DNA of 64,000 bases. Source: Octopus vulgaris. Lineage: Eukaryota. The notes under the pieces were generated by a model that saw nothing but the letters and a program-made list of their open reading frames with translations, did no database searches and was not told the origin of the DNA. The translations under genes were made by a program, and so were the position numbers. Of the stretch, positions 3,437 through 43,258 are shown one piece after another. Positions within the stretch are counted from its first letter, which is position 1. Each line of letters starts with the position of its first letter. The DNA is taken from NCBI GenBank assembly GCA_951406725.2, contig OX597825.1, positions 44,826,001 through 44,890,000 on the forward strand, written 5' to 3'.

Positions 3437-3690
3437 GATCAGTGGCTGTGTGTCACGTTGAAATTTATATGTTCGAACCGTGAATTCAGCAACGCCACCT
3501 AACCAAGCAGCTACTCTGGGTTGATGAAGAGCAATAAATCTGGAACTAGTCGACAAATGTTGTTTTGTGCTGGAGCGGGGATGCTGAATTCTCGGTTCGA
3601 AAATATAAGGACACAGATATTACTTGGGCTAATAAACAGTAACAATATCCTTTACAGGACAGCCATATTATGTTGGTAAAGTAAATTTTA
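3437..3690 (+). repeat. Divergent single copy of the ~350-bp HHR repeat
   Basis: Shares AGATCAGTGGCTGTGTGTCAC and TATAAGGACACAG with the 5300-7090 units. Outer stem TTCGAACCGTGAATTCAGCA/TGCTGAATTCTCGGTTCGAA. Degenerate core TTGATGA...GGAACTAGTC. Confidence 0.7.
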
Positions 3691-3907
3691 AAATAAAAAA
3701 TGAAAGCATCTGTAAATTGTGTGCTGGTGTTATGAGAAATGTTTCTATATTTTTATACTTTCAGAATATAGAAACAAGTGTAAAACCAATAACTATATAA
3801 TCCAACCAAAATATCTCAGTTATGCAAACGTGAAGATAATTACTATTTAGTCTTAAAATACATCGTACCTTCTTCGTTTAGTGGTACGGAACATTCTTCT
3901 GATATTC

Positions 3908-4163
3908 TTTTATTATTTTACTTGTTTCAGTCATTTGACTGTAGCCATGCTTTAGTCGAAGAAATCGACTCCTGGACTTATTCCCTGTAAGCCCGATGCT
4001 TCTTCTGTCAGTTTTTCTGCCGAACAGCTGTTACGGACGCAAACACACCAACATCGGTTGACAAGCGATGGTGGTAAGGGGACACGCACAGACACACACA
4101 CACACTCATATATATATATATGAATGACGGGCTTCTTTCAGTTGAAATCCACTAATGAGGCTT
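3908..4163 (-). mobile_element. tRNA-derived SINE family A (OK-like), 3' part
   Basis: Reverse complement of the 3' half of the SINE at 7603-8000. Confidence 0.75.
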
Positions 4164-4219
4164 TCCTTTCTCTATCCCTATCGCTTCACTCCTTTTCTCT
4201 ACGGTTAAGAGAGACTGAA

Positions 4220-4510
4220 GGTGCGTGGCTCAGTGGTTAGGGCTATTCAGTCCACGATGGTAAGGTCATGAGTACGATTCCCGGCGACGCGCTGTGTTCT
4301 TCAGTTGTACTTCACCTTCCTGCAGGCCACTCAGCTGGCAAAAATGAGGCCAACCTTGTCACATTCTGTGTGAGGCTGAATCTCCCTGAGAACTACGTTA
4401 TCGTATGCATGTCTGTGGAGTACTCAGCCACTTGAGCTTTAATTTTACGAGCAGACTGTTCCATTTATCAGATAAGCAGGAACCTCGTCATCGTAACCGA
4501 CGGAGTGCCA
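4220..4510 (+). mobile_element. tRNA-derived SINE family B
   Basis: A box TGGCTCAGTGG and B-box-like GTACGATTCC. Homologous to 34836-35150 (-) and to the fragment at 4828-4935. Confidence 0.75.
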
Positions 4511-5299
4511 TTTTTTAAAAAGAGTAAAAGAAAAGAAAATGTTCCATATCGTAAGGCAAACATGTGTTTAGTATAAGCGGTGAAAGCTAAGACGTAATAC
4601 TTGCTTTCCGTCGCGTAGTAACTTCGCCCTGGACTCACGCTCTGTTTGATAACAACAGCCTGTGCATCGGTCTTTATCTGGGGACTTGGTCTCCAGATCT
4701 GTGAGACCCACAAATGCTGCTGTTAGGACCGGATTAACACTCATACTGACTAAAAAGATTTTCCTGCCCCTACATAGGATATTTTTTCGTTTTCTTCCAA
4801 CCACTTGCTTAACTTGCTCTAGGCTTATCTTGCTCCAGTCTACTCAGCTGACCAAAATGAGTTGTAGCTGTAATTGAAAGGGGTCAGCCTTGTCATATTC
4901 TGTATGAGGCTGAATCTCCCTGAGAACTACGTTAATTTTATCCTCGTGTGGTAATGAAAAGTGAAAGTGACGTCCAATATTTGCTGTGTTATTTGTCTTT
5001 GATTTAACAATGTATCTGTGTATCTATGTATTAACTTTTCTTTCGATCTATGTATCTACTTTCTCTCTCATTTGCTTTCTCTCTGTCTGTCTGTCTCTCT
5101 CTCTCTCTTTCTCTCTTACTTCCTGCGTTCCTCCTCTCTTCCGCTTTTAATTTAACAATGTGTGTATGTAAATATGTATCTACTTTTCTTTCAATTTATG
5201 CATCAATCTACTCTGAAAATACTGATAAACATTTTACCTCTCTCTTCAACTTTAGAATAGTAACAGTAACATCCACAGCTATTTGCTGAGAGAGAAATT

Positions 5300-7090
5300 G
5301 TGTGTCACTTTAAAAGTACATGAGCGAGTGATGCTATCCCTAAGCCAACTGTTATTCTGTGTCGATGAATGGAAATAATCCAGAAACAATGGTCCGCTAA
5401 TACCGTTTAATGCTAAGTAGAGATATTAGCTCCTTTGCTCGAGATGTAAGGACTAAGTTGTGTGTCACTTTAAAAGAATATAACTTGAACATGAGCTAGT
5501 GCTGCCATCTCTAAGCCAACGGTTATCCTGTGTCGATGAAGGGAAATGACCAAGAAACCATGTTCCGTATGTACCGTTTAATGCTGAGTGGGGAAATTAG
5601 CTCCCTCGTTCGAGGCATATAGACGGGATTGCGAGTCAGCTGGAAGAGAGGTTTTTCCTGGTGTTAAAAAAGGTAGTAACATCGTCCTAATCAGGACTGA
5701 CAACTTACGTTAGCAAATAGATTTTGCCCTGTAGTACTGTTACTACTTACTTTTCATTCAGAGATTTAAAGCTAATGGCTTCCCTCTTTAGATCAGTGAC
5801 TGTGTGTCACTTTAAATGTATATACCTCGAACAAGGACTAGTACTGCCATTAGTAAGCCAACTGTCATCCTGAGCCGACGAATGGAAATAAACCTGGAAA
5901 CCATGATCCTCAAGTACCGTTTGATGCTGTGCGCGGACATTAGCTCCCTTATTCGAGGTATAAGGACACAGTTGTGCGTCAGTAGCCAAATGCAAAAGAT
6001 GCTTTCCAAGGGATTCAAAAGGTAATAATAGCATCTTAATCAAGATTTCCAATTTACGTGGTCAAATAGATTTTACTCTTTAGTAGTGTTGCTAGTTACT
6101 TGTTGCTCAGTGATTTAAAGCGAATAGTTTTCCTCTTTACGAGATCGGTGGCTGTGTATCACTTTAAAACTATATGCTTCGAACAAGACCTAGTGCTACC
6201 ATCTCTAAGCCAATGGTTTTCCTGTGCCGATGAATGAAAATAACCAAGAAAACTTGGTCCGCAGGTGCTATTTAAGGCTCAGTAGGGACATTAGTTCCCT
6301 TATTCGAGATATAAACACGCAGTTATATGTCGGTAGCCAGCTGGTAAAGATCTTTGCCTGTTGCTAAATAGGTGGTAATATCATCCTAATCAGGACAACC
6401 AACTTACTTTGGAAATAGATTTTACTCTGTAGTACTGTTATTACTTAATTTTCGCTCAGAGATTTAAGACTAATTTTTTTCTGTTATACGCTATGATTAA
6501 TTATGTGCCACTTTGAAAATATATACTTTGAACATGACCTAGTGCTGCCATCTCTAAGCCAACGGTTATTCTGTGCCGCCGATGAAGGGAAATGACCCAG
6601 AAACTATGGTCCGCATTTACCGTGAAATATCCAAGAATCCATGGTGCGCAAGTACCGTTTGGAGCTGAGTGGGGACATTAGTGGGATCAGAAACCATGAT
6701 CCGCATGTATCGTTTAAGGCTGAATGGGGACATTAGCAATCTTGTTTGATATGTATGGACGCAGTTGTGCGTCGGTAGCCAGCTGGAAGAGATGTTTTCC
6801 TGGACTTAAAAATGTAACATCGTCCTAATCAGGACTGCCAACATACGTTAGCAAATAGATTTTTCCCTGTAGTGCTGTTACTACTTACCTTTCACTCAGA
6901 GATTTAAAACTAATGGCTTTTCTTTTTATGAGTGACTGTGTGTCACTTTAAAGGTATATCGAACAAGACCTAGTGCTACCATATCTAACCCAACGGTTAT
7001 CCAGTGCCGGTGAAGTGAAATGACCAAGAAACCATGGTATGCAGGTTACCATTTAAGGCTGAGTGGGGACATAAACTCCCTTGTTCGTGG
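5300..7090 (+). repeat. Tandem array of ~350-bp hammerhead-containing units (non-LTR retrozyme-like)
   Basis: The unit marker TGTGTCACTTT recurs at ~5301, 5461, 5803, 6155, 6504 and 6939. Each unit has tgtg-YCGAYGA-stem II-GAAA-CCATGG-TC-cgca inside a long imperfect hairpin. Confidence 0.85.
5871..5912 (+). ncRNA. Type I hammerhead ribozyme motif (representative array copy)
   Basis: tgag-CCGACGA-atggaaataaacctg-GAAA-ccatga-TC-ctca. Stem I is tgag/ctca here versus tgtg/cgca in other copies, a compensatory change. Sister motifs start at 5358, 5529, 6223, ~6572 and 7003. Confidence 0.7.
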
Positions 7091-7092
7091 TA

Positions 7093-7512
7093 CAGGGGTT
7101 TCACAAAATAATGGAAACACCTAGCGTCATAGCATCATAATTTTGAAATATCTATAAAACCGTCAAAAGCTTGTTTATTTTTATGTTTTTTGATTTATGA
7201 TTTTTTATTCATGTTTTTTTATCTAGCTTAATCTGTTTTGCTAAAATTGCTGTTTCTTTTCAGATATCATCAGAAAATAGTAATAAAAATTCATTAAAAT
7301 GACAGATCTATCGTACTTTCAAATTGTTAGTGCTCGTATGGCAGGTGCTAGCGTAACGAAAACAGCCGATATGTTTGGTGTATCAAGAGGTACTGCCTCG
7401 AAAGTAATGACAGCCTCTGAGAAAGAGTAAAAAACCTCCCCGTCGAAACAAAGCTCATGAAGAAAACCAAAACTTTCAGATAGGGACCATCGGACACTTA
7501 CGCGAATTGTTC
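7093..7512 (+). mobile_element. Tc1 element 5' fragment (TIR plus HTH domain), truncating the HHR array
   Basis: TA|CAGGGGTTTCACAAAATAATGGAAACACC terminus. From 7299: MTDLSYFQIVSARMAGASVTKTADMFGVSRGTASKVMTA...RKPKLSDRDHRTLTRIV, with stops. Confidence 0.85.
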
Positions 7513-7602
7513 TACGTTATATATTTTAATAATTACTGCAATTTTTTATATATGTAAAGCATAATGTTATACATCTATGTATAATTTTTTTTTAAATAAA
7601 TA

Positions 7603-8000
7603 GGCGCAGGAGTAGCTGTGTGGTAAGTAGCTTGCTAACCAACCACATGGTTCCGGGTTCAGTCCCACTGCGTGGCATCTTGGGCAAGTGTCTTCTGCTA
7701 TAGCCCCGGGCCGACCAATGCCTTGTGAGTGGAATTGGTAGACAGAAACTGAAAGAAGCCTGTCGTATATATGTATATATATATATAAGTGTGTGTGTAT
7801 ATGTTTGTGTGTCTGTGTTTGTCCCCCTAGCATTGCTTGACAACCGATGCTGGTGTGTTTACGTCCCCGTCACCTAGCGGTTCGGAAAAAGAGACCGATA
7901 GAATAAGTACTGGGCTTACAAAGAATAAGTCTCGACTAAAGGCGGTGCTCCAGCATGGCCGCAGTCAAATGACTGAAACAAGTAAAAGAGTAAAAGAGTA
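7603..8000 (+). mobile_element. tRNA-derived SINE family A (OK-like), full length
   Basis: Head GGCGCAGGAGTAGCTGTGTGGTAAG with B box GGTTCAGTCCC, internal TA/GT microsatellite, and tail GTCAAATGACTGAAACAAGTAAAAGAGTAAAAGAG. Several copies occur in the window. Confidence 0.85.
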
Positions 8001-8101
8001 TAATATAATGTCTAAAAGTTAATAAATATCACCTCTTGATCCCCACCATTATCTTATTGCTATACACACACACCCACACACACACCCACACACACACACA
8101 C

Positions 8102-8170
<69 letters not shown>

Positions 8171-8173
<3 letters not shown>

Positions 8174-9317: not shown

Positions 9318-9371
<54 letters not shown>

Positions 9372-9946: not shown

Positions 9947-10069
9947 TATTTGCCATTTAAATATGGCTAACCCCTAAGGGTGGATGCTACTGTAGTTCGT
10001 AGCCTCGGGAGGACACCTCCTTCATCTGGCTTTAGACACACTTTCTGTGCCCTATCAGCGTTTGCAAAG
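9947..10069 (-). repeat. Fragment of the HHR-repeat conserved domain
   Basis: TTGCCATTTAAATATGGCTAACCCCTAAGGGTGG...CTGGCTTTAGACACACTTTCTGTGC matches 28415-28520 in reverse complement. Confidence 0.75.
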
Positions 10070-10451
10070 TGAGTAGATATTGATTAAAGTAAACAATTAG
10101 GCAATACAGGACAAGAACATTTAATTTCCTTTAATTCAATCTAAAATTTAGCTACATAAGCAATGATAAAAATACTCCGTATGGAGGGAAAATGAAAATG
10201 AATGCTAGCAGATCCAAAGTTGTGCGAATACTCAATATGGAGTACTGCATAACAAATTCTTTCCCTCTTCTCCTTATGCCGTTCCACATAACTATTCTTT
10301 TTGATCATGGATTTACCTAATGCAGACCCAACCTAACCTCATTTAAATAGCCAGATCACAGTGATTTCGCATTTATGCTATTGCCTCTCTTCTCAGTCAT
10401 TAAGATAAGTGCTCCTTGTGGCTATGAGTTGTTTTAACTCTTATTTCTAGC

Positions 10452-15601: not shown

Positions 15602-15731
15602 TAGTGGTTTGGACTTTAGCTGTTCCTTCTAGCGTGAAAGGAATCCTATGAAGGAAACCTCTTATGTGCTTAAATGTACACTGTATTTAGGTAAATCCAA
15701 TGAATTTAGGTAAATAAACCTTCCAAAAGAT

Positions 15732-15836
15732 GGTCAGCAGCGTCGCCTGCAGGGTTCGGCTTCTCCACATTGATAAGGGGAAACTACCCCGAAACTAGTT
15801 CGTGGCTGTCAAACCAGCAAGGCGAAGCTGCTGACC
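15732..15836 (+). ncRNA. Type I hammerhead (U3-A8 core) in an extended hairpin; divergent HHR-repeat copy
   Basis: ccaca-TTGATAA-gggg-aaacta-cccc-GAAA-ctag-TT-cgtgg. Outer stems GGTCAGCAGC/GCTGCTGACC, TCGCC/GGCGA and GGTT/AACC. Confidence 0.8.
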
Positions 15837-15964
15837 TCCCCTGTTCGAAGGTTATAATGGGCACAGGTTTCTGTGTCACATAGCTAGCTAGAGGCAATGG
15901 CTTGTTGGATCTAATCATTTTCCTGGTCTCCCATGTTAGCTTGGCGATAACTATAAATATATAT

Positions 15965-19130: not shown

Positions 19131-20718
19131 ATATACGAAAGAAGGTTTGAAAATTCAATTTAAAAGATGTTTATTTACTTTACCGGTTTCACTCTTTAGA
19201 AAAAGATTGTCAAAAGTAACATGTAGAAGTTTGGTTGCGGTAATTATTGGTTATTACAAATTGCTACATTACAGATATACAGTCTTTGGTAACAGGGACA
19301 TGTTAAGGACATAAAAAAGTTCAACAAGTACCTTAAATTATTGGGCACAAAAGATTTCTATATAAATAATCGTTCTCAAGGACATGCTTAAGATAGTTTC
19401 CAGAAGGAATTGATATTGGTATTGGTATTGTATCTGTATATTCAAACATGCACAGAATATTGGTTGACACAGAGTACTACAATCCATATAAATATACATT
19501 CTTTGGTGACAAGAGCATGTTGAGAATATAAAAAAGTTTAACAAGCTCATTGAAATAATGGGCACAAAAGATTACAACAAATATATTATACATTCTCAAG
19601 ATAATTTCCAGAAGGAATTATTAAAAAAGTTCAATATACACGTACAGGATATTATGAGTTCAAAAATATTTACATTATAATAGTAGTGAAGCTAAAACTG
19701 ACCTGTCCGCTATGGTAGCGTAAAAGAATATTATCTATTTCAAGGGACACAGTAGGTGTGTTTGGTTGGGGGGAAAAGGAGGAGTAATGTGGAACTGAAA
19801 AGAATTTACCCTTTTTTGTCGCTCCTTCAAGCATCAATGATTTAGGGGTCAGGATGGGGTGAGTGTGTGTGTCTTTGTGTGTATGTGTGTGTGTGTGTGT
19901 ATACATATTTGGTGTGAATAGATGTGTCTGTGTGTCTGTAAGATCTGGTAGGATGGTGTGTGTATATGTGTGTCCGTTTGTCAACCGCGTGTGTGGTTGT
20001 CTTGGTGTTGTGTGTGTGTGTGTGTTTATGTATGTGTGTGGATGGCATTTGGCATGGTGTTGCATGTGTATGTGTGTCTGTATCGAGGTGAGATTGGTGT
20101 GAGTATGTGTGTCCTTGTGTGTGTGTATATATATGTATACATGTGTTTGTGTGTGTGGTGGGCTGTTTTTGATTGGTTCCAGGGTCCATTGTGGTGTAAA
20201 TAGATGTGTGTTATTTAAAGAATTTTTGGGGGTAGTATGGTGTGTGTATATGTGTGCCCGTTTGTGTGAGTGTGTGTGTGTGTATGTGTGTGGTTAATGT
20301 TTATTAGTGTGTTGCGTGTGCGTTAGTGTGTATGTGTTTGTTCGTATGTGTGTCCATGTCTGTTGGGTGTTTCTGTGTGGCATGTGTGTATATGCGTTTT
20401 GCGCGCGTTGGTATTGAGTATGTGCCTGTGTGTGTGCGTATATATGGTGTGGGTGTATGTGTCTTTGTGTCTGTATATATATGTATACATGTGTTCATGT
20501 GTGTGTCTGGGCCATATATATATATATCATATATACATATATATATTATACATATATACACTATATATATATACATCACACATACACACATCATATACAC
20601 ATATATATCATATATACATATATATATAACATATATATATTTATATACAATACATATACATATAATATACATACATATAACATACACACACATAACATAT
20701 ATATATAATATATATATA

Positions 20719-20756: not shown

Positions 20757-21568
20757 CATACATATACACAATACATATATACACACAACACATACATATA
20801 TACAGACACACAGACACATCTATTCACGCCACATATGTATACACACACACACGCACACACACAAAGACACACACACTCACCCATCCTGACCCCTAAATCA
20901 TTGATGCTTGAAGGAGAGACAAAAAAAGGGTAAATTCTTTTCAGTTCCACATTAATCCTCCTTTTTACCCCCAACCAAACACACCTACTGTGTCCCTTGA
21001 AATAGATAATATTCTTTTACGCTACCATAGCGGACAGGTCAGTTTTAGCTTCACTACTATTATAATGTAAATCTTTTTGAACTCATAATATTCTGTACGT
21101 GTATATTGAACTTTTTTAATAATTCCTTCTGGAAATTATCTTGAGAATGTATAATATATTTGTTGTAATCTTTTGTAACTTTTTTATATTCTCAACATGC
21201 TCTTGTCACCAAAGAATGTATATTTATATGGATTGTAGTACTCTGTGTCAACCAATATTCTGTGCATGTTTGAATATACAGATACAATACCAATACCAAT
21301 ATCAATTCCTTCTGGAAACTATCTTAAGCATGTCCTTGAGAACGATTATTTATGTAGAAATCTTTTGTGCCCAATAATTTAAGGAACTTGTTGAACTTTT
21401 AACATGTCCCTGTTACCAAAGACTGTATATCTGTAATGTAGCAATTTGTAACAACCAATAATTACCGCAACCAAACTTCTACATGTTACTTTTGACAATC
21501 TTTTTCCAAAGAGTGAAACCGGTAAAGTAAATAAACATCTTTTAAATTGAATTTTCAAACCTTCTTTC

Positions 21569-21575
<7 letters not shown>
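19131..21575. repeat. Large inverted repeat (~800-bp arms) with an HHR motif in each arm
   Basis: 19131-19940 is a near-identical reverse complement of 20801-21575. HHR tactt-TTGACAA-tcttt..aaagagt-GAAA-ccgg-TA-aagta at 21487-21529 (+) and 19176-19218 (-). Confidence 0.9.
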
Positions 21576-21642: not shown

Positions 21643-21659
21643 GAAATATTAAAATTACT

Positions 21660-21911
21660 AAGTCTCTCTAAAAGAGAACAACGGCAGCGTTTCCGGAAAA
21701 TAATAGTTATCGCCATACTAATATGGCATTCTTATAAAAATAAGAAAAAAGCTGTCCGCTTATTAGCTCCATGAGGCCATCGCCTTAAGTTAGCTATATG
21801 GATACAGTTTGTGTATCAAATAGCTAACTTAAGGCGATGGCCTCATGGAGCTAATAAGCGGACAGCTTTATTCTTATTTTTATAAGAATGCCATATTAGT
21901 ATGGCGATAAC

Positions 21912-21916
<5 letters not shown>
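21660..21916. repeat. Palindromic copy of a divergent HHR-repeat conserved domain
   Basis: Arms 21701-21797 and 21820-21916. CGCCATACTAATATGGC and CCATGAGGCCATCGCCTTAAGTTAGCTAT resemble the family domain. Confidence 0.7.
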
Positions 21917-22856: not shown

Positions 22857-22963
22857 AAGCAATAATAAATCTCTGAACGAGGTATAAACAGTAACTGCAC
22901 GACAATGTGAGGTATACTTGCCAACTCATTATGGTTAACCACCAAGGGTGGGTGTTACTGTAG
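22857..22963 (-). repeat. HHR-repeat fragment abutting the Tx1 3' breakpoint
   Basis: Near-identical direct repeat of 28081-28189. Confidence 0.85.
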
Positions 22964-25900
22964 CTCGTGGTAAGTTCTTCTTTTCCAGCCCCATTTTGCT
23001 CTTCAGATGATATCTGAAGTAAGTGAGCAAGCCGGGGCCTGAGACAAAGGATCCTATTGCGACTCCTTCCATTCTTGTACACCACATGCATTCTTTTACT
23101 ACTGCAACCGTGCAGTGAAAACATGCCTCACCTTCCTTCGAGAGTCCAGTTGGCGGTATCATCTTAATCAGAGACTCAGCCGACAGCTGTACTCGTCCCA
23201 GATGCGATAACACGTGTTCTGCGTAACTTATCAAGTCTGACAACTGCCGACAGTGTACAAAAGCGTGCTGGACGGTTTCATCGTCCAACCCGCTTCTTGG
23301 ACATGTCAGTGGCACTGAAATTCCGTGCCGCGATAACTTCTCGCGAACAGGTAAAGCATTCCTATAACACTGCCAGGCCAGGGATCTTTGAAAATTATCC
23401 AAACACCCCGTCCTGAAAGTCTTTTTAAACAGGTTGGTAAGCTGGTCCTCGTCGAACCCCAGAGCCCCTCCTAGGACGTCGTCGTTCTTTGCCTCTACCA
23501 GCCTGCTATAAAATACCGAGGTGGTATTTCCGCAGCCGGCCTTGCCCGCCTTGTGGATAAGCGTGAGTGCCTGTCGGCACTCCTTTTGCCATAAAATCAG
23601 ATTCCGTCTTTTGATGCAACCGGGTTTAAAATTCACTAAGGAAGCCGGTCTCGGGAAAAATTCCCCTGCCAGCGGACTCCACACCTTATCACCCTCCAGG
23701 TGGTGCCAGAGAAGCTTCAGCCTCAACGCATGTCTGCGCATCATCAACCAAGGCATTCCTAACCCACCCTTTAACGGTTCCTGGCAGCAAACGGAGCGCC
23801 TCACAAGTGGCTTTCCTTCCTTCCACAAAAAGCGGAAAAGGATTCGCTCCAACTTGCTAAGCCATGAATCGGGGCAAGGGACAACGGTCAGGCGGTAAGT
23901 GATTACAGATGCTATGAACATCTGTACCACCTCCGCCCTTCCTTTCAAGGACAGAAACCTTCCGGACCAGGTCCGTACTATGGCCTCCACCTTGTCCGTC
24001 ACCTCACTCCAATTCCTCTCCGTTTGGGAGTCTGGCCCAAACCAAACTCCTAGCAACTTAACAGGACCATCTGTCCAGTGTCCCACGGCACTGGACGATA
24101 TCGACTTGCTCCTCCAGGTGCCGAGGCGTAAGCCAATCGACTTGTCCTTGTTAACTTTTGCTCCTGCCACCGCCTCATATCCTCTGATAGCATCTTCTAC
24201 ACAAGGTAGCTGAGCCTCATTGGACACGATGAGGGTGACGTCATCCGCATAAGCAGAAACCGTCCTCCCGCCTCCGATCTCATCCGGGTTACTTCCCAGC
24301 CTCTCCAACTTCCGCAGCAATGGCTCGAGAGCCAACACGTACAAAAGTGGTGACAAGGGACACCCTTGACGAACTGAACATTCGATCGAAAACGGTTCTG
24401 TTAGGTAACCGTTTATCTGGACGGTGGACTTGATGCCGCTATACATAGCGGAGATCCACCCGCGAAATTCAGGGCCCAGTCCAGCCGCTTCGAGGACCGT
24501 CGCCAGGTACTTATGGTCTACCCTATCGAACGCTTTACTTTGGTCTAAATGGACCATTACCCCGCCCTTGCCGGTTAATTTACCCACCCTATCTAAGGCG
24601 TAGCGTATAAGGTGAAGATTGTCCTGGATCGACCTGCCTGGATCGACCTGCCTGGAATTGCTTTCCCTACAAGTTTCTCCACGACAGTCGTCAACCTTTT
24701 TGCCAACACCTTGGCCAAAATCTTTAACTCTACATTAAGTAGAGTTATGGGCCTGTAATTACTAATGTTATCCCCCTTGCTCGGGTCTTTCTGGATCAGC
24801 GTCACCACTCCCCGGCTTACAGAACTGGGAATTCTCCCGTTCTGCTGCCAGTTCGCGTAGACGCCTGCCAGTATTCCCCCGAACAAGTCCGGCATACTTT
24901 GATAAAACTCGTAGGGCAGACCATCCAACCCCGGCGACTTCTCCCCGGCGCATCCGGTCAGTACCCCCTCTATCTCCGCGGGAGTGATCACTCCTTCACA
25001 GCACTCCACCTCACGCCCCGAGAGCCGCGGTCCGCCGGCTAGGAAGTCCTTTAAGGCCCTCCCCCGCTCCAGCGCCCCCCCCCCCCGAACGCGCGGGCAA
25101 AATGCTGGTGAAGAAACTTTTGCATCTCCTCCTGTCCATAGATCTTGTGTCCCTGTTCGTCAGTTAAAGACTTGACTGAAGCTTTGTTACCTCTCTGACT
25201 CTCCACTCGACGGGCCCATCCGGCAACGTTAATACCTTCTCGTTTCCCTGCGCGTAGCTTAGCTCTAACTCTGCAACCTTCGTGTTTGGAGTTGAGGTGA
25301 CGGTACAATACCGTCCTTGCCGCCATCACTCCGGATGCAGAGCCAGATTCCATTGCCTCGTTTAGATTCTTAACTAAATCGTCCTCTATCCTAGACCTAT
25401 CTAACCATAGCTGATTGCTAAATCTAATGGACTCTGAACGAATGGCTCTTTTGAGGGAGTGCCATCATCTATTGTTAATGATGGTGCCACATAATGCCTT
25501 CTGTACTAACACCTTAATCCGGGTACGGAAGTCTTCACAATTCAAAATAGACTTGTTCTGCTTCCAGTACCCGGGTCCCTGTCTATGGCACTTATCTAAT
25601 TGCACCCTACAAGTCACAAATTTGTGATCCGTGTAAGGCACAATGTGAAACTGTGGACAACTAAACGTATCCTTATCTCTTTTCCTAATGAATATCCTAT
25701 CTATATACGATCTGCGTGAGCCGTCGTTGTTACTCCACGTCCACTGTGGAACGCTCGGCTAATCCAGTCGATAACGGTCTACTAGATTAAAGCTCTCTAG
25801 TAGACCCTTGAAGCTAGGGTTCCCCTTCCTATTGGTTGAGCCAACACTGTCGACCCGCGCTTCGAGGACAGTGTTAAAGTCCCCTACTAAGACTACCGTT

Positions 25901-26291
25901 TTCGACGTCACTATAAAGTGCTCCAGATTCCGAAAAAACCTGACTGCCTACACCCATTCGGAGCGTAGACAGCTACCAACCTGAAGGACTGTTTACTTAC
26001 GTGGGTCACATCCAGAACGACCAGCCTGCCTTCTGGGTCCAGAAAGACAGTACTTACCTGCAAGTCCAAGCTCTTCCTGATAAGGACTGCCACGCCCCTT
26101 CCTCCTCCTCGGCTAGGAGAAATAAATTTCTCGAAACCATTTAGAAGAGGCGAGAACGCTTGGGCCCCGTTCATCTTGGACTCGGTTACAATAGCTACGT
26201 CCACTCCGTGTGTTGTGAGGTCGTTCAGGAGACAAATTTGTTTCCATTTCGACCCCATTCCACACACATTCACACAACCCAGCTTTGCCAT
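22964..26291 (-). pseudogene. Tx1 ORF2: APE endonuclease, reverse transcriptase and C-terminal zinc finger (disrupted)
   Basis: Endonuclease: NVCGM, GRLVVLDV, VAVYAPN. RT: KSPGLDGLPYEFY, NYRPITLLN, LDQSKAFDRVDH, VRQGCPLSPLLY, AYADDVT. Zinc finger: CPRSGLDDETVQHAFVHC. Confidence 0.95.
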
Positions 26292-26314
26292 TGTCGGAGA
26301 GAGAAAAAAAAAAC

Positions 26315-27750
26315 TTACGGTTGGGACAGCGAGCATGACAGTTTAAATCTGCATGCTTCCCCTTCTTCCTCCCTTGTGGTCGTAGCTGCAGGGTTCTTAA
26401 CCGGCATTGCCATCGGGCTCTGGGTAGGTGTGGTTGCTGGGGTTATAGTAAGTTTGCCTTCCAGTATTTCGTTAGTTACGTCTCTGATTAGGTTATTTTT
26501 AAAATGTTCTTGGAGTGTTTTTTCCTTCCACTCGTCTTCCTTTATTTTTGCAAAACAAGTGGTCGACTTAGTGTCTGCAGACTTACTGAATAATTTCAGT
26601 TTTGAAAATTTTAAATACTTAAACACTCTATCGTTCCTCTCGTCGAATGCTACAATCTTTTCATTTTTTTTCATCAATTTTTTCCAATCTTGTTTTATGG
26701 GGAGGGGCTTGGCGAACTATGTTCCAATGAATACAGTGCCGTGGGGGTAGGGCTGGGGAATTTGTTTTGTATGTATCTCTGCGGTGTTTGCTGATTTTTT
26801 CTTTGTTTGGGGAGGGGAGTCCAGGGTATTTTCTTTTTTCTTTTGTGTGTCACCTGTGTAAATTCCATTTGTTCATTTTTATCTTCCGTTTCGATTCCCT
26901 TCCTTGTCGCAGTCTTGGGGTCTTTTTCCGCCTTTTCTTTTTCTGTGTTTGAAGCACTTTGAGGAGGGGCTTCGCTGTTTTTCTTTTTTTTTATGCAGTT
27001 CGAGCGGACGTGACCCTTTTCACCACATTTGAAAAACCTAGGTCTGCGCCCCTCCACTGACACTCTCATTGTAATTCCCTCCTCAATAAATACCCTATCG
27101 GGTAAGATTTCTAGCACATTATGTTCTGCTTGAACGAGGAGTTCGAGCGCTTGTCCCTTCCAGTTTACCTCCTCTTTCCTTTTCATCTGCAGAATTGAGA
27201 CTTTCTGCTCTACGTCGTGCAGAACCGCCGCTGCTACCCACATTATATCATATCCTCTTGGTATGTCTTCCACATATAGTTTCGCAGTTCTTTTGCCCAT
27301 ATAGGTAGGTAGTAACATGATGTCCTCACTTTTTAAGGTCATCGATGAAATCTCTCTTGCCACATCAGCCGAGTAGAAATGTGCTTCAACGGTAGCGCTG
27401 CGGGCACCTCGACCGACGTAGCGAATTTTGCTCCACACCGGGGACAAGCACTTCTCTACTATCACGTTCTTCACGTCCATTATTTTTTTCTCTTTGTTAC
27501 TGTAAACCTTGTACACGACTGTCTTGGCCTTTATTTCCTGTAATATCGCTTGCGGCGGTACCAGTTTTATTTCGTTGCCTTCCTTTTTGACCAAGTTCCG
27601 GTATTCGAACAACTGTTCTATTTTGAATTCCACTTCCATTACGGTTCCGCCCACTGCGGCCGAAAAAGACTGTTTTCTAACCTCGATATCCTTCTGTTCA
27701 CATTTTCCCATCACGGGAAAGTCGCTCCTCGACGCCAAGTCGAACTCCAT
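26315..27750 (-). pseudogene. Tx1 ORF1 (gag-like nucleic-acid chaperone), frameshifted
   Basis: 351-aa ORF with EGRRPRFFKCGEKGHVRSNC (CCHC knuckle, first Cys lost), continued by ORF 26315-26677. Confidence 0.8.
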
Positions 27751-27991
27751 TTCTCAAATTATGAGAACCAATTTTTCAAAAGAAAAAAAAAAGATTACCC
27801 CGAAGGTAATAACAATGTTTATACACAGAATTTTCAGCCCCGTAGGGCGAAAATTACTGTCACACAACGGACAACTGTTCAATTCACGAGCAAGCACAAA
27901 CAACGACGAACAAAAAACGAACTCACTCAACAAAATAGGCAGCTAACTTCTCAATACGCAGATGAAAGAGGGGTCCCTAGACGAGTCAAAA

Positions 27992-28533
27992 CACCGGTTT
28001 TCGATGAAAGGAGTCCCAATGCAAATACTTATATCGTTTTTCCAGTAACTTTTCGTCACTGATCTCGAAAAACTGTCTGCAAGCAATAATAAATCTCTGA
28101 ACGAGGTATAAACAGTAGCTGCACGACAATGTGAGGTATACTTGCCATCTCAATATGGCTAACCACTAAGGGTGGGTGTTACTGTTACTTGTAGCCCTAG
28201 GAGAACATCGAGATTTATTAATGCTTGCATACAGTTTTTCGAGATCAGTGACGAAAAGTTACTGGAAAATCGATATAAGTATTTGCATTGAGACTCCTTT
28301 CATCGAAAACCGGTGATTGTCGTACGCTGAGGACAGGTCAATACCTAGAAACTACAGTCCGTGCGTATCACTTAGGTTGACGAGGGAAGGATGACCTCCC
28401 TTTGCAAATACCAAAAGTGCACAGAAAGTGTGACTAAAGCCAGCTGGAGACGATGTTCTCCTGGGGCTACAAGCTACAGTAACACCCACCCTTAGTGGTT
28501 AGCCATATTGAGATGGCAAGTATACCTGACATT
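27992..28533. repeat. HHR-repeat (retrozyme-like) monomer plus inverted, circularly permuted partial copy
   Basis: + strand unit 28211-28533. The minus-strand segment 28210-27992 joins the unit's 3' end to its 5' start. Confidence 0.85.
28321..28365 (+). ncRNA. Type I hammerhead ribozyme, canonical core
   Basis: cgtacg-CTGAGGA-caggt-caat-accta-GAAA-ctacag-TC-cgtgcg. Stem I is extended by GTGAT/ATCAC, AACC/GGTT and TATTTGCA/TGCAAATA. Confidence 0.85.
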
Positions 28534-35225: not shown

Positions 35226-35226
<1 letters not shown>

Positions 35227-36152: not shown

Positions 36153-36440
36153 TATATATATAGGTGTGTGTATGTGTGTGTGTGTGTGTATAATTTAGAA
36201 AAAAACTCTATTAAACAATTCAATAAAGGAAGATGTTATTCACACCATATAGAAAACATATACTATATAAAAAATTTATTTTAAAAATCAATAAAGTACA
36301 ATAAATAGTAAATAGAAGGCTTATAGAGAATAAGTCCTGGGGTCGATTCGTTTGACTAAAGGCTGTGCTCTAGCATGGCCGCAGTCAAATGACTAAAGCA
36401 AGTAAAAGAATAAAAGAATAAAAGTATACACATATATTTA

Positions 36441-37661
36441 CGAGGGGCGTTCAATAAGTAATGCCCCTGACCCACTTCCCATAGCAGTAGAGCAACGAAA
36501 CTTGGCACAGTTATTAGTCTTTTTCTACATAGGAACAACCCAGAGTTACGCATTTCTCCCATCGTTTGATGCGGCTCTGGAGACCGTTTTTGTAGAAGAA
36601 CCCAGCTTGGTCCTCTAACCTCAACGTGACTTCAGAAATCAAGGCTGCATCATCTGGGAAACGCTTTCCTTTCAAAAACAACTTCATGGCTGGGAAGAGG
36701 TGAAAATCAGAAGGTGCAAGGTCAGGAAAGTAGGGGGGATGGGGGAGGAGTTCATAGCCGCACGCCTGTGCTTTTGATCTGGCGACAAGCGAGTTGTGGA
36801 CCGGAGCGTTGTCCTGCAGGAGGAGGATGCCTTTGCTGATCTTGCCCCGCCTCTTTATTTTGATAACTTCTCTTAATTTCCTCAAAAGTGAAGCATAATA
36901 GGCTCCTGCAATTGTGGTACCCTTTGCCAGGAAATCTGTCATCACTACTCCACTACTCCACAGTGCTTCCACTGCATTGACTGGGCTTTGGTCTCTGGAT
37001 CATCGTGATGGACCCAGGTTTCATCCTGTGTAGTCAGTCTTTTGAAAAATTTTGACTCATCTTCTTGGCACATCTCCAAATTCACCCTCGAGCACTCGAC
37101 GCGTTCTTGCTTCTGGAAAGGCGTGAGCAACCTGGGAATCCATCTGGCAGATACCTTTTGCATATGCAAATGGTCATGAATGATAGTTTCCACAGACCCT
37201 GTACTAATCTTGACCTCATGGGCTATTTGGCGAATAATTATGCGTCGATCTTCCAAAATGGCAGCCTCAACTTGACGGACAGATGCCTCATCAATTGCAG
37301 AAGGGGCGACCAGATCTGGGAGCTGTTTCCACAGAGTTCCGACCATGTTTGAATTCACGATGCCAGCGTTTCACAAGGTCATATGATGGGGCATCATCAC
37401 CATAAGTTACTTTCATTTCATCAAAAGTCTCCCGTGGTGTGCGTCCTTTCAAATACGAAAACCGGATCACTGCTCGACACTCAACAGGCACCATTTCACA
37501 CTTGACTCGGTTCAAACACCTGTAAATCAGAAACCACAATTAATTTAGAGCTGTAATTTGCCACTTACTCTATAGAGATATAAATGATTGCACATGCAAA
37601 CTTTCAGCTAGATCAAATAACTGCAAGTGGGTCAGAGGCATTACTTATTGAACGTCCCTCG
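36441..37661 (-). mobile_element. Mariner transposon (irritans-like), internally deleted and frameshifted
   Basis: 37-bp TIRs CGAGGGGCGTTCAATAAGTAATGCCCCTGACCCACTT with TA flanks. Motifs WIPRLLT, DETWVHH, QDNAPVH and HPPYFPDLAPSDF. Confidence 0.95.
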
Positions 37662-38269
37662 TACATATATTGGATAGAGATATATACATGTATGTATATA
37701 GGTATGTATATTTATATACAAATGTATACACTGACTTGTCCATATATTTACATACACATGTATACACATTTATGTACATATATAACACACACAGTGCATA
37801 CATATATATATGCATATATACAAAACACACACTCCTGCAAAATGAAAGAGTTACAACTCAAGCAGTTTGTTTCCCTTCTATCTTTATCCCACTTCTTTTC
37901 ATTAAATTGACTAAAAAGTTTTTTATTTATTTGTTTAACTGAACCTCCTTGTATATAACATTAATTCATAACATATACACACACATATATATGCACATAC
38001 GTAGATATATTTATATCCTTTTGTATATATGTATAAACATATAGCTATATAAATATGTACGTATGCATGCATGTATGTATATATGTATATTCTTCTCTTT
38101 CTCTTTTTAATTCAGAGTAAATTTTGACTGGCCACCAACATAGTGCCAAGGTTGGGAAGGAAAGTATCTTGTTTCAAGTGTCATTCTTTAAATCTTAAGA
38201 AGGTATTGCAGACTGTTATAATCCCAGATATGGACTTTTTAAGAATGCAAATTAAGGATTATCATTCTC

Positions 38270-39639: not shown

Positions 39640-40780
39640 AAATAGAAATAAGTTGTTGGCCCTTTAATCTCACAAACTTCTCACATCATTAAAGTATTCG
39701 AGAGGGTAGTGACTTTTCTGGAGAAAAACTAATTGCATGATCCAAATCAAAATAGTGTTTGTAGTGGTAGAGACTGCTTAACACAGTTTCTACAACATCC
39801 TAAAAGATAGAGAGCTACAATACTGACATCAGTAAAGTTTTAGACAATCGACTACAAAATTCTGCAGAAGAAATTATTCAGAGTCAGTGTCCGTAGTAGA
39901 CTGCAGTGGATTAAGTGTGTTTGATGTCAAACAGAATCCAATATACTGTGATCGATGGAACTAGCTAACATAGTGTACTCTCAGTGTGCCCTCGAGACCA
40001 GATATATATAGTGTACCCTCAAGACCAACAAAAATACTGTACCATCCGATTACAGTGTTAGGCCCGCTTTGCTTGTTTACTTAAATAACATTGGAAATGT
40101 CACTAAAATTAGTAAAATCAAATATGACTCTAAGCTCCAGAAAGTCATCAAGGGAGTACGCTGACCAACAGAGCTCCAATCCATTCTATACGCTGGGATT
40201 CAATGAGCAAAAAAATGCAAAGCAAAACAAATGAGACAAAAATTCGAGCTCATCCATTTTGGAAAAGAGAATATACATAACAGTCATATTCCCTTCCCTG
40301 GGGTTAGCTTCGCCTCGTGCCAAATAACATCAGAGACTTAGGTGTATCTTTGGAAAACAACCTAAGCTGGAGCGCGCACATTAATAATAAAGTCGAAATA
40401 GCCTGAAAAATGTACTCATGAATCCTTAGAACTTTCTAGCCCTGATCTCCTGATGCCATCATTCCTCTCTTCCCTACGTTTTTTGGTCTCACTTTCAGTA
40501 TTGCTGCCCACTATGACTCCCGCTTATAAAAAAAAGAAACATTAAGAGAAAAGAAGCACCCCAGGAATCGATCGTAAAAAATAATAAGTAGATGATATGA
40601 CAGAGATCACATCAATATGTTTACACTTTAAGTTCTCCAACGCCACTGCGAACGCTAAATTATTTTTACAATGTCCATCAATATTCTTCAAATGATGCCG
40701 GTATCAAGTTCACAAGACATCCATGGATTGGCCCCGGAGCCATACGCCATCTACAAAAATCGAGCTTATTGCAACACAAC
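39640..40780 (+). pseudogene. CR1/L2-group LINE RT remnant
   Basis: TSHIIKVFERVV; NQNSVCSGRDCLTQFLQH; TVLGPL; IRDLGVSLENNLSWSAHINNKV; ILRTF; YCCPL. Confidence 0.8.
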
Positions 40781-40789
40781 TTGCTTACG

Positions 40790-41280
40790 TTGATGTTCTT
40801 AGGAGCAAGTATTGCTCTTTCACACAATCAGTTAAGATTGTAGTAGTTGTCCTGCAAATTCGGGAACACCTTGTCCCTTAGTTCATTGATAGAAGATACA
40901 ATGGTACAAAGTGGCGAGATGTCTAGTTCACCTGTCGCGTTCAATGGCACCTTACCGTCACCAAGTTCCAAAAAATCTTTAGCAAACTGGGAAGAATTTC
41001 GATCACCATAAATTCAGGCTCTCATATTTGTGGATAGCGTAAGTGTTGTAACATGACACCACAGCGGTGAGGACTTAAGGCACACTTGTACTTCATCTGC
41101 CCTCGTACTTTTAGGAATGACAGGAAGAGTTTGTCTAAAGTCACCTGACAGTAGAAACGTTGCACCACCCATTGGAGCCTGACTATCTCGTACATCCCCC
41201 AAATTTCTATCTAATGTCTCTTAGCCTCCTCTATGAGCCATTGTGTACTCATCCCATACGATAAGAATACATCGTCGGAG
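40790..41280 (-). pseudogene. Helitron PIF1-like helicase fragment
   Basis: LIVWDEYTMAH; MGGATFLLSGDFRQTLPVIP; LKSSPLW; LSTNMR; RAILAPKN. Confidence 0.9.
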
Positions 41281-42382
41281 TTGAAATTCACATTATAACA
41301 TGATTCCTGTCCATGTAAATGCCAGCTGTTTATAAGCGCTGAATAAACTTTGCTTGAGATTCCACGCGCGTAAAAAATATCGAGTTTTCACCTTACGCGT
41401 ATAAGCTGCATGTTTACGTGCAAGGCAGTTCACAAAAAAAAAACCTTTCACGTGAAATACCGTAAAGAATTGTTTTATTTTCAATTGTGGCCCACAAATC
41501 CATGGGAATCGAAAAAATTTAAAACGTAGAAATACCTCCTGAAAAATCTATTCAGTGTTACAATTTTGAAGAAAATCTTTCGTCAAATGTATAAATTCTC
41601 AAATGTAATAAATAACAAATAATAAGTTGATAAACAGTAGTTTAATAAGAGAAATTGAAGCATTTTAACAGTGATACATAATGTTTGGTGCACAGTGCGC
41701 ATGTGTGAAAACCTATAAGACATTTGGACAAAGAATGGAGGCGCTAAAGCATTATCGATTTTTTTCGATGTGCTACACCTCGCAAAGGAAGCACCCTAAA
41801 AGTATACAAATTTTTACAAGCTGTAGGTTAGAGTCTAATGTACATTAGACGCGAAGTTGAGCGCAATCGGATAAAAGCTTAAGACGCTTTGTCCAAAACG
41901 AAATTTTTTGAGTCGGTTCTCATCCTGTGCTCAAACGAAACGGAATTTGAAAAAACTAAAGATGATATTAAACTCCTTAGATAAAAATGCATAAGTATGT
42001 TGATTTTGATGAAAATCGGACAACTTTGAAAAAATCGATAATGATTTATTGATTTTTGGAGGAGATCCGATATCAATATGAAAAAAATCAATAGTGTCAC
42101 GACCCGTCTCGTCCAAAAATGCATCGATATGTAAAGTTTCAAAAAAAAAAGCGTCGGCTAGTTTCGAAGAAGAATCCGGAACGCCAGACACTCAGACACA
42201 CACAATGACACACAGACAACCTATATTTTATATAGAGAGATTTTATTTTTACTTTTTTACTCTATGTATTTTATTTTATTTTTTTTTATTCTTTGTTTTA
42301 TTTTAAAGTGTTATGAACCCTAGCATAGTTAATATATCTAATATTTTTAACCCTTTCGATATTTACAATAAGTAAATATTAG

Positions 42383-42595
42383 GGCAGCGAGCTGGTAGAA
42401 TCGTTAGCACGCCGGGTAAAATGCCGTTACGTTCTGAGTTCAAATTCCGCCGAGGTCGACTTTGCCTTTCATCCTTTCGGGGTCGATTAAATAAGTACTA
42501 GTTACGCACTGGGGTCGATGTAATCAACTTAATTCCTTTGTCTGTCCTTCGTTGTCCCCTTCCGTGTTTATCCCCCTATGAGCAATAAAGAAATA
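42383..42595 (+). mobile_element. tRNA-derived SINE family C (Nin-domain-like) with 18-bp TSD
   Basis: Core GCCTTTCATCCTTTCGGGGTCGAT. TSD GATATTTACAATAAGTAA at 42358-42375 and 42596-42613. Confidence 0.85.
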
Positions 42596-43003
42596 GATAT
42601 TTACAATAAGTAATAGATTGCCTGGAATGACTTCCACCTTAATCAAATATTAATAATAACTATACATACATGAATTAAACTCTACATACTAATTTTCTAT
42701 TGCTTTAATATGTATGGACATAATATCGCAATATATGACATTTCTACCAATGTATCTACTTTTACTAAACACCCTAGATGAATATATTGACCTATTCTTA
42801 CTTTACAACTCCAATATACACTACTTTGCTCCCCTTTCTAAAGTCTATACCATGTTTTATACTATATTCTTTATGCATAAATTTTATCAGTCAACGGTTT
42901 GCAGCCGTATAGTCAACATGCATGAATTGAACACCTATTTTGTATATCTTAAACTACCTCTGAGAAGATTTGACATTCAAATAATTTAAAATTTTATTAA
43001 TTA

Positions 43004-43042
43004 ATTTTCTGAAGGCCTAGAATTGAAACAGCTGTAAAAAAT
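43004..43042 (+). ncRNA. Minimal HHR-like motif (degenerate)
   Basis: atttt-CTGAAGG-cctagaatt-GAAA-cagctg-TA-aaaaat, with palindromic stem III. Confidence 0.45.
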
Positions 43043-43123
43043 GTTTGTCAATTTTTTAATTAATAAATAATAATTTATTATCTCTCTATTTTCTTATCTT
43101 ATTGTTTTATATATAGGCTATGT

Positions 43124-43258
43124 AAAATCTCTGAGCGAGATGTAAACAGAAGCAATACCGATTCGTAATATATAATTGCCAACCAAGTGTGGCGTCCTGT
43201 AGGGGACACTGCTACTGAGGTTTATAACCCCAGGAAGACATCTCTTCCAGTTGGCTAT
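43124..43258 (-). repeat. Fragment of the HHR-repeat conserved domain
   Basis: AAATCTCTGAGCGAG...TTGCCA..TGGC...CCCCAGGAAGACATCTCTTCCAGTTGGCT is the reverse complement of motifs in the 5300-7090 units. Confidence 0.7.

What the first reader, a model, noticed from the sequence alone, without database searches (positions are those of the whole stretch)
3437..43258. A conserved non-ribozyme domain links at least eight divergent HHR-repeat loci
Seen: the same ordered motifs recur as GCACAG..TGTG, AGCCAGCTGGA..GATG..YYCCTGG, CAGTAACA, a GCCA-n-TGGC hairpin, CG(C/T)TCAGAGATTTA and AGATCAGTGAC. They appear wholly or partly at 3437-3690, 5300-7090, 9947-10069 (-), 15840-15955, 21660-21916, 22857-22963 (-), 27992-28533 and 43124-43258 (-). 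The HHR hairpins attached to them differ strongly in sequence. Inference: this is an old, diversified family with a constrained module opposite the ribozyme, which could be an internal promoter, an RT-recognition element or a ligation/replication signal. This module is not explained by any element annotated here.
Basis: partly seen in the sequence, partly recalled or inferred. Interest (0 to 1): 0.72.

Follow-up and report, generated by a model that had tools for sequence, protein, structure and literature searches.

The report
Octopus retrozymes with Penelope insertion ends
The shared module is the folded 3' half of a roughly 350-base, non-coding, hammerhead-bearing mobile repeat (a known kind called a retrozyme); its copies end at two fixed points beside TA repeats, as Penelope retroelements do, which marks this fold as the likely docking site for a borrowed reverse transcriptase.

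Summary
The motifs are real. They are not a separate domain grafted onto different ribozymes. They are the 3' half of one colinear 351-354-nt non-coding unit found in about five diverged lineages, with a type I hammerhead in the other half. Only 4 of the 8 loci keep a hammerhead; the others are 5'-truncated. Both halves covary as RNA structure. The module folds as a row of hairpins around a three-way junction, and a family C tail not used to derive the model folds the same way (0 of 200 shuffles). Copy 3' ends fall in two classes about 50 nt apart, 7 of 8 beside TA repeats. Head-to-head inverted pairs carry the extra tail on one arm only, and one palindrome is centred on a module hairpin. These are the published footprints of Penelope-like element (PLE) integration. 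Best reading: an octopus non-LTR retrozyme family copied in trans by a PLE enzyme, with the module as its RT-binding and initiation site (inferred). It is not a SINE domain or LINE tail on the tests I could run. Cleavage, circular RNA, expression and the partner PLE are untested. A known kind of element with an anatomy I did not find described.

The parts
3405..3690 (+). Lineage E, near-monomer: Inr-like motif 3436, decayed hammerhead (core 3521, predicted cut after 3551), module with hairpin Hp1 deleted, short (tail-less) 3' end
   Evidence: (hammerhead rod z -5.86)
5255..7091 (+). Lineage A head-to-tail array, old and rearranged: six hammerhead cores, four modules; cut-to-cut units of 343, 351 and 354 nt, 74-75% identical; cut off at 7092 by a Tc1-like transposon end (label recalled)
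5790..5800 (+). AGATCAGTGAC motif, 85 nt 5' of the hammerhead core; Inr-like TCAGT with an AT-rich box about 30 nt upstream (candidate Pol II core promoter, inferred)
9947..10073 (-). 5'-truncated B-like copy (starts about 37 nt after the cut site, no hammerhead): Hp0, Hp1, Hp2, Hp3, short 3' end at TA repeats
   Evidence: (81% to 28396-28533)
15713..15955 (+). Lineage C copy: hammerhead with U3-A8 core (15770), G-C at the base of helix II, cleavage triplet GUU (cut after 15800), long rod, module with internal deletion, short 3' end at TA repeats
   Evidence: (z -6.61)
21648..21916 (.). Lineage C head-to-head palindrome centred on the loop of module hairpin Hp0 (~21808). Left arm (-) carries the ~55-nt tail; right arm (+) is tail-less; (TA)n on both sides
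22858..22965 (-). Lineage B tailed 3' end at (TA)n; its 5' side is joined to a C-terminally shortened LINE ORF2 at a ~10-nt microhomology
22966..27991 (-). Interposed L1/Tx1-like LINE (RVT_1, zf-RVT, Exo_endo_phos; clade label recalled); not part of the unit
27992..28209 (-). Lineage B inverted arm: module, tail, Inr-like motif; stops about 9 nt before helix I of the hammerhead, at the LINE's 5' end
28082..28127 (-). The 'tail' between the two 3'-end classes: 3' strand of helix P1 (~28119-28112) and last hairpin Hp4 (~28105-28095, ending in CAGAGATTTA)
28208..28533 (+). Lineage B direct arm, 326 of 354 nt of one unit, tail-less end at (TA)n; joined head-to-head to the inverted arm
28276..28411 (+). 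Hammerhead domain: long rod closed by a 9-bp helix; type I core CUGAGGA at 28327-28333, helix III of 2 bp with a 4-nt loop, predicted cut after 28359
   Evidence: (z -4.33)
28417..28517 (+). Module 5' part: Hp0 (28417-28434), bulged Hp1 with GAUG loop (28440-28464), P1 5' strand (28476-28484), Hp2 (28486-28498), Hp3 = GCCA-n-TGGC (28502-28517)
43118..43259 (-). Lineage D 5'-truncated tailed copy, no hammerhead, TATATA on both sides
   Evidence: (z -2.91)

Best explanation
The eight loci are copies of one old family of non-coding, ~352-354-nt tandem units (non-LTR retrozymes, i.e. non-autonomous Penelope-like elements) in an octopus-like genome. SHOWN from sequence: colinear units, head-to-tail junction, hammerhead anatomy, covarying folds in both halves, two 3'-end classes, TA targets, 5' truncation, inverted arms. 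INFERRED steps: (1) A tandem is transcribed, perhaps from the Inr-like motif about 113 nt before the cut. (2) The hammerheads, with a 2-bp helix III and palindromic loop, cleave slowly and probably as dimers, giving unit-length RNA that may be circularised. (3) A PLE RT-endonuclease made elsewhere binds the hairpin module, nicks TA-rich DNA and starts cDNA inside the RNA at one of two sites: the unpaired linker just 3' of Hp3 (+161 to +174 from the cut) or just past Hp4 (+218 to about +229). The ~50-nt difference is the PLE 'tail'. (4) Synthesis usually stops early, leaving module-only fragments, or folds back or switches template to give head-to-head arms; at 21.8 kb the fold-back is at Hp0. 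The module therefore recurs because it is the first part copied and the part under selection for recognition by the enzyme.
For: Unit: array periods 343/351/354 nt; one public contig (run X17) joins 28533 back to 28216 across 36 letters, giving a 354-nt unit, the length also obtained from the two arms at 28 kb. Hammerhead: core positions 5, 8/3, 9, 12, 14, 15.1 and 16.1 are kept in the seven aligned units while position 7 varies; across four runs position 7 (28331) shows all three other letters and 93-99% of contig depth restores a palindromic loop 3; 18 of 26 pairs change on both sides, 0 of 500 shuffles. Module: 82% of 292 cells paired against 74% shuffled and 35-49% slid; 13 of 32 pairs two-sided. 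Out-of-sample check: 21655-21800(-), whose tail was not in that alignment, folds by energy alone into Hp1, P1 closing Hp2 and Hp3, and Hp4, with a wholly different P1 sequence (z -2.77, 0 of 200). Ends: 5 short and 3 tailed; 7 of 8 have three TA repeats within 14 nt, background about 0.03. Inversions: two in the window; 8 of 10 listed joints in public contigs are opposite-strand. Published PLE traits that match: optional tail on one inverted pLTR, palindromes at inverted junctions, pLTR sufficient in trans (PMC3846280 passages; PMC8557442 passages); two internal RT start sites bounding the tail, downstream of the hammerhead, with AT-rich targets (PMC11167929 main text); retrozymes related to pLTRs (bioRxiv 10.64898/2026.07.22.740005).
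Against: No partner PLE was found: the model matched only the known loci, and the window's own GIY-YIG-like remnants scored no better than E 0.39. RNAalifold on the same alignment recovered only Hp2 and Hp3 (7 pairs, covariation term +0.05). Only 3 of 11 single module segments folded better than nearly all shuffles. The structure was drawn from these same 12 segments, which represent about five lineages, so the shuffle counts overstate independence. The hammerheads deviate: position 4 is C in 5 of the 7 aligned units (U4C lowers activity in vitro, PMC3088659 passage) and pair 10.1-11.1 is non-standard in 5 of 7. In the Li et al. preprint only 1 of 9 predicted retrozymes cleaved in vitro. The tail here (~50-55 nt) is longer than the 30-40 nt described for PLEs, and the start sites lie further from the cut than in the anole element (about +85 to +92 for its stem-loop site). 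Only eight ends were scored, placed by eye.
Confidence: 0.72

Rival explanations
1. The unit is simply the pseudo-LTR and tail of an autonomous PLE family not present in this window; the short copies are ordinary 5'-truncation debris and the tandem array is a secondary satellite. The module is still the RT site, but there is no independent retrozyme cycle.
For: All insertion footprints are PLE footprints; half the loci are short truncated ends; the Li et al. preprint derives retrozymes from pLTRs.
Against: Past the tail, lineages A, B and E return to the start of the same unit rather than entering an ORF; the longest ATG frame in the array is 75 codons; unit length is held at 351-354 nt between lineages only ~55% identical; the hammerheads have the canonical short helix II and palindromic helix III rather than the long-helix-II minimal form at 56386.
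Confidence: 0.15
2. The module is conserved mainly as an internal promoter or as a stability/ligation fold of the circular RNA; insertion ends fall there only because the adjacent linkers are AT-rich.
For: Penelope has an internal promoter overlapping its repeat (PMC2377424 passages); an Inr-like motif with an upstream AT-rich box keeps its spacing in 4 of 4 units; the linker after Hp3 is TATA-like.
Against: Compensatory base-pair changes argue for selection on RNA structure rather than DNA sequence; no Pol III A box was found in any locus, and the B-box-like words are one strand of the helix closing the hammerhead rod; both end classes border the module.
Confidence: 0.08
3. The module is a SINE central domain or LINE 3' tail, moved by a LINE.
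For: At 22965 the module directly follows a LINE ORF2; octopus genomes hold hundreds of unclassified SINE families (PMC13282606 passage).
Against: That ORF2 is cut short: 8 of 11 aligned relatives run on 14 or more residues past the junction against 7 here, and the closest (79% identical) has the same ATV codons, so the joint is a microhomology. No tRNA gene or A box lies upstream; a hammerhead does. Circular permutation, two fixed ends and head-to-head arms are not SINE traits (own knowledge). I could not compare with SINEBase, Repbase or Dfam sequences.
Confidence: 0.04

Closest known systems
Metazoan non-LTR retrozymes (Cervera and de la Pena 2020, PMC7229834; results and discussion read), e.g. 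Mytilus 350-390 bp and axolotl 330/350 bp repeats
   Same: Non-coding tandem unit of about 350 nt, GC under 50% (0.39-0.49), one type I hammerhead per unit with a short palindromic helix III; the axolotl Amex2 motif also has a mismatch at the base of helix II.
   Different: No cephalopod example in the text read (its supplement could not be opened). That paper names PLEs as candidate mobilisers but describes no tail, two-ended insertion pattern or conserved non-ribozyme fold. U4C is fixed in lineage A here. Cleavage and circRNA are shown there and untested here.
Xenopus retrozymes as non-autonomous PLE derivatives (Li, Clavereau, Pollet 2026, bioRxiv 10.64898/2026.07.22.740005; abstract to discussion read)
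   Same: Monomers, dimers and multimers of a hammerhead-bearing unit tied to PLEs.
   Different: Their link is sequence homology and a tree with pLTRs; mine is insertion anatomy, with no partner pLTR identified. No mollusc was among their 35 species.
pLTR and tail of EN+ Penelope-like elements; Poseidon of Anolis carolinensis (Frangieh et al. 2024, PMC11167929; main text read) and Adineta Penelopes (PMC3846280 passages)
   Same: Hammerhead followed by a region with two internal RT start sites that define an optional tail; AT-rich targets; head-to-head inverted arms with palindromic junctions.
   Different: There the region overlaps the start of the ORF and the tail is 30-40 nt; here there is no ORF, the tail is about 50-55 nt and lies 160-230 nt after the cut. 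No sequence comparison with the anole RNA was possible (its structure figure is an image).

Membership tests
Non-LTR retrozyme | Tandem non-coding unit of about 150-450 bp | tested here: met
   Array units 343/351/354 nt; 354-nt head-to-tail joint in one contig of run X17; longest ATG frame 75 codons
Non-LTR retrozyme | Type I hammerhead in each unit (sequence and structure) | tested here: met
   Nine cores at the same place in the unit; 18 of 26 pairs covary. Caveats: no Rfam hit, U4C and a non-standard 10.1-11.1 pair in most copies
Non-LTR retrozyme | No LTR, PBS or PPT; GC under 50% | tested here: met
   GC 0.39-0.49; no terminal repeat structure other than unit repetition seen (PBS/PPT judged by eye)
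Non-LTR retrozyme | Self-cleavage in vitro | not testable with these tools
   Needs co-transcriptional cleavage of monomer and dimer
Non-LTR retrozyme | Expressed as linear and circular unit-length RNA | not testable with these tools
   No listed holder is on record as RNA and all laid runs are contigs
Non-autonomous PLE derivative | Homology to the pLTR of an autonomous PLE | tested here: inconclusive
   No match to the PLE-like remnants in this window; no whole genome held
EN+ PLE-type insertion | Optional 3' tail, often on one arm only | tested here: met
   5 short and 3 tailed ends; 21.6-kb palindrome has one of each; length about 50-55 nt rather than 30-40
EN+ PLE-type insertion | 5' truncation with head-to-head inverted copy | tested here: met
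   21648-21916 and 27992-28533; 8 of 10 listed contig joints opposite-strand
EN+ PLE-type insertion | AT-rich or microsatellite target | tested here: met
   7 of 8 ends at TA repeats, background about 0.03
Autonomous PLE | RT plus GIY-YIG ORF | tested here: not met
   No ORF in or adjoining the units
SINE (tRNA/5S head, central domain, LINE tail) | Pol III head with A and B boxes 5' of the domain | tested here: not met
   No tRNA gene; 0 A-box matches in the eight loci; 3 loose B-box matches, all in or beside the helix closing the hammerhead rod
SINE (tRNA/5S head, central domain, LINE tail) | Homology to a named central domain (CORE, V, Ceph, Deu/Nin, MESC, Meta) | not testable with these tools
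   No SINE or repeat library is offered
LINE 3' tail | Module is the natural 3' end of a LINE | tested here: not met
   Adjacent ORF2 is shortened at a microhomology; other copies have a hammerhead upstream

The most novel reading that the evidence does not exclude
The module is the RNA docking structure of a PLE reverse transcriptase, isolated from any coding constraint, and it explains the PLE tail structurally: the two initiation sites lie on either side of the 3' strand of a three-way junction plus one hairpin, so opening or keeping the junction decides tail-less versus tailed ends, while fold-back at the first hairpin makes the inverted arms. Paired with a deliberately slowed hammerhead (U4C, mismatched helix II base) and a promoter that is completed only at a tandem junction, it would be a minimal, complete cis-acting kit for a telomerase-related RT, possibly shared in fold by retrozymes and pLTRs of other animals.
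Probability: 0.3. Interest if true: 0.72.

Novelty: new member of a known kind. Interest (0 to 1): 0.46.

Why it matters
How PLE enzymes, the closest retroelement relatives of telomerase, recognise their RNA and why their copies carry an optional tail is known from one in vitro study. Which enzyme moves animal retrozymes is argued from co-occurrence and homology. This family offers direct insertion footprints that tie a retrozyme to PLE-type integration, and a 165-nt covarying fold, free of coding constraint, with two mapped ends. That gives a ready mutagenesis plan for RT binding and initiation. It is also an abundant octopus repeat (thousands of contigs in one run) that Rfam misses. The class itself is known, so the gain is mechanistic detail rather than a new system.

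Tried and rejected
Whole genome: none held, so no copy census or partner search. Rfam: no hammerhead or other relevant family. Pattern scans for the module: 0 hits in metagenome contigs and viral contigs; a phage BLAST gave 4 chance 38-nt hits at E 0.09. Expression: no RNA holder listed; two laid runs are only guessed to be RNA; no evidence either way. The contig depth rises about 100-fold toward the module and steps up near the cut site, but the tool states contig depth cannot rank parts, and variable helix II positions could cause the step, so I do not use it. The recurrent loose end at 28471 is explained by the two P1 strands being complementary, not by a separate junction. B-box reading of GTTCGAAC words rejected: they are a strand of the helix closing the rod. 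The closing helix tested alone against shuffles was weak (2, 16, 30, 60, 107, 186, 195 of 500 in seven units). The relaxed hammerhead descriptor was non-specific. Pfam and PDB found nothing for the GIY-YIG-like remnant at 55355-55786; the Atlas gave look-alikes at 0.95-0.96, one cluster with GIY-YIG in 11% of members, so 'PLE remnant' rests partly on recall. A word-based search with the LINE C-terminus found nothing; the HMMER search did. Earlier-findings look-ups by sequence and place were empty. Hp0 was left out of the pair count because MAFFT put it out of register; folded singly it formed in 7 of 8 copies, weakly in two.
Full report
CONTEXT. The window is AT-rich (36.5% GC), microsatellite-rich animal DNA full of transposon remnants. 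The closest named relatives of two remnant proteins are from Octopus bimaculoides (79%) and O. sinensis (81%), so I treat it as octopus. No whole genome is held.

OBSERVATION. The motifs recur in the stated order. Of 66 pairwise alignments among 12 module segments, 38 beat all 300 dinucleotide shuffles. The segments group as A (array 5255-7091), B (9947, 22857, 28 kb), C (15.8 and 21.8 kb), D (43.1 kb) and E (3.4 kb). C is the weakest link by sequence: 15840 beats all shuffles only against 21660, and 21660 only against 15840 and one B segment. A covariance model found the training loci, the second arm of the 21.8-kb palindrome (59.8 bits) and nothing else below E 0.39.

THE UNIT. The module is half of a longer repeat. 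Array units measure 343, 351 and 354 nt cut to cut and are 74-75% identical. Lineage B aligns to A colinearly over all 326 nt compared. The best-kept section is +56..+110 from the cut (z 5.5 and 6.2), followed by the hammerhead (4.0, 3.4) and the upstream part (2.8, 2.7); +111..+165 is not above chance in sequence. AGATCAGTG(A/G)C sits 85 nt before the hammerhead core in 4 of 4 units with both. Twenty of 24 listed public runs, from four coded organisms and nine studies, hold part of the B arm. In four runs laid, 4911, 1844, 270 and 78 contigs matched at 80% or more, and one contig of run X17 joins 28533 back to 28216 across 36 letters, a 354-nt head-to-tail unit.

HAMMERHEAD HALF. Rfam misses it, but nine cores lie at the same place in the unit: type I, helix I of 6 bp extended past an internal loop, helix II of 3-4 bp, helix III of 2 bp with a mostly palindromic loop. 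In seven aligned units the core letters are kept while position 7 varies. In public contigs position 7 shows all three other letters, 93-99% of depth restores the palindromic loop, and U4C appears in 13-46% (16 variant rows were not shown). The domain folds as a long rod (z -4.3, -6.6, -5.9 for B, C, E; -1.5 to -1.9 for three A copies), and 18 of 26 pairs change on both sides (0 of 500 shuffles). Deviations: C at position 4 in all five aligned A units, a non-standard 10.1-11.1 pair in 5 of 7 units, and U3-A8 in C, a covariation reported for PLE hammerheads (PMC4209133, results read). Only 4 of the 8 loci keep a hammerhead.

MODULE HALF. On a sequence-only alignment, 82% of 292 cells pair (74% shuffled, 35-49% slid) and 13 of 32 pairs change on both sides. 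Against this: RNAalifold recovered only Hp2 and Hp3, only 3 of 11 segments fold much better than shuffles, and the model was drawn from these sequences. The best independent check is the left arm of the C palindrome, whose tail was not in the alignment: it folds unaided into Hp1, P1 with Hp2 and Hp3, and Hp4, with a different P1 sequence (z -2.77, 0 of 200).

INSERTION FOOTPRINTS. Of eight 3' ends, five stop 3-16 nt after Hp3 (+161 to +174) and three stop about 10 nt after Hp4 (+218 to about +229). Seven of eight are followed by TA repeats (background about 0.03). At 21648-21916 two arms are joined head-to-head at the loop of Hp0, one with the tail and one without. At 28 kb a tail-less direct arm is joined to an inverted arm 94-95% identical; that arm runs into an L1/Tx1-like LINE, and the tailed copy at 22858-22965 resumes on the LINE's other side. 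The LINE's ORF2 is cut short there: 8 of 11 aligned relatives continue 14 or more residues against 7 here, and the junction is a ~10-nt microhomology. One insertion split by the LINE and a later deletion is the simplest reading; two insertions, or carriage of the LINE as a passenger, are not excluded. Eight of ten listed joints in public contigs are opposite-strand.

MECHANISM. These footprints match EN+ PLEs: 5' truncation, inverted 5' copy, optional 30-40-nt tail at one end, microsatellite bias (PMC8557442 passages), palindromes at inverted junctions and pLTRs sufficient in trans (PMC3846280 passages). In the anole PLE, the protein-binding region lies downstream of the hammerhead and RT starts at two internal sites that bound the tail, on AT-rich targets (PMC11167929 main text). 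I infer that a PLE enzyme binds the module and starts at the Hp3 linker or just past Hp4, that early stops leave module-only fragments, and that fold-back at a hairpin makes inverted arms. Binding, cleavage, circularisation and expression are not shown. The AGATCAGTGAC motif contains an Inr-like TCAGT with an AT-rich box about 30 nt upstream, 111-114 nt before the cut (consensus recalled); Penelope has an internal promoter (PMC2377424 passages), so this is a separate, untested promoter candidate.

COMPARISON. The unit meets the testable criteria for a non-LTR retrozyme (PMC7229834 results and discussion). A 2026 preprint ties such repeats to PLE pseudo-LTRs by homology in Xenopus and found cleavage in 1 of 9 tested. 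The partner PLE is unidentified: the window's GIY-YIG-like remnants have a different, long-helix-II hammerhead at 56386 and no module. SINE and LINE-tail readings fail the tests I could run, but no repeat library was available.

NOVELTY. In nine searches of an open-access library I found no description of cephalopod retrozymes, of PLE tails on retrozyme insertions, or of a covarying non-ribozyme fold in them; a 2026 O. vulgaris repeat annotation has no occurrence of 'ribozyme' or 'retrozyme' in its main text (PMC13282606). Subscription papers, Repbase/Dfam entries, the supplement of PMC7229834 (unreadable) and bioRxiv supplements were not seen and may hold this family. PMC4758252, PMC3088659 and PMC11722881 were seen as passages only.

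VERDICT. Real, and largely explained: a new member of a known kind, with useful anatomy. Interest 0.46.

Noticed in passing
window 54761-56519 (+) and 43689-45384 (-): Remnants of a GIY-YIG-like element with an asparagine-rich stretch (54771-55367), an inverted copy of its 3' end at the 5' side (54761-54853 vs 56427-56519) and a minimal hammerhead with a long helix II at 56386; the 3' end lies about 65 nt after the predicted cut at (TA)n. Looks like an autonomous PLE family unrelated to the module; N-rich inserts are described in Adineta Penelopes (PMC3846280).
   Followed up: partly
window 22858-28533: The arrangement inverted arm - direct arm - 5-kb LINE - tailed direct copy mirrors the 'two direct plus one inverted pLTR around a passenger' pattern described for PLE trans-mobilisation; the LINE may have been carried as a passenger rather than inserted later.
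   Followed up: partly
window 58053-58088 (-): A CTGATGA...GAAA hammerhead-like motif just past the 3' end of the R2/RTE-like LINE remnant at 58200-62200 (clade label recalled), before (CA)n.
   Followed up: no
window 45674-45956, 54259-54585, 53679-54142: Further near-perfect palindromes of 250-460 bp flanked by (TA)n, from other repeat families; possibly the same fold-back insertion process.
   Followed up: no
window 19136-19857 and 20881-21569: A 720-bp inverted duplication (91% identical) ending at (TA)n, with a weak hammerhead-descriptor hit near each end (19213, 21492).
   Followed up: no
window 7603-8010, 43268-43625, 51241-51611, 62961-63123: Several copies of a tRNA-type SINE with A- and B-box-like head; no share in the module.
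   Followed up: no
window 36432-37670 and 46030-47318: Two mariner-like transposon copies in opposite orientation, 89-94% identical, with terminal inverted repeats.
   Followed up: no
window 5362-7013 and 28328: Hammerhead core variant U4C is fixed in lineage A and present in 13-46% of contig depth in lineage B, together with a non-standard pair at the base of helix II; worth a kinetic test.
   Followed up: partly
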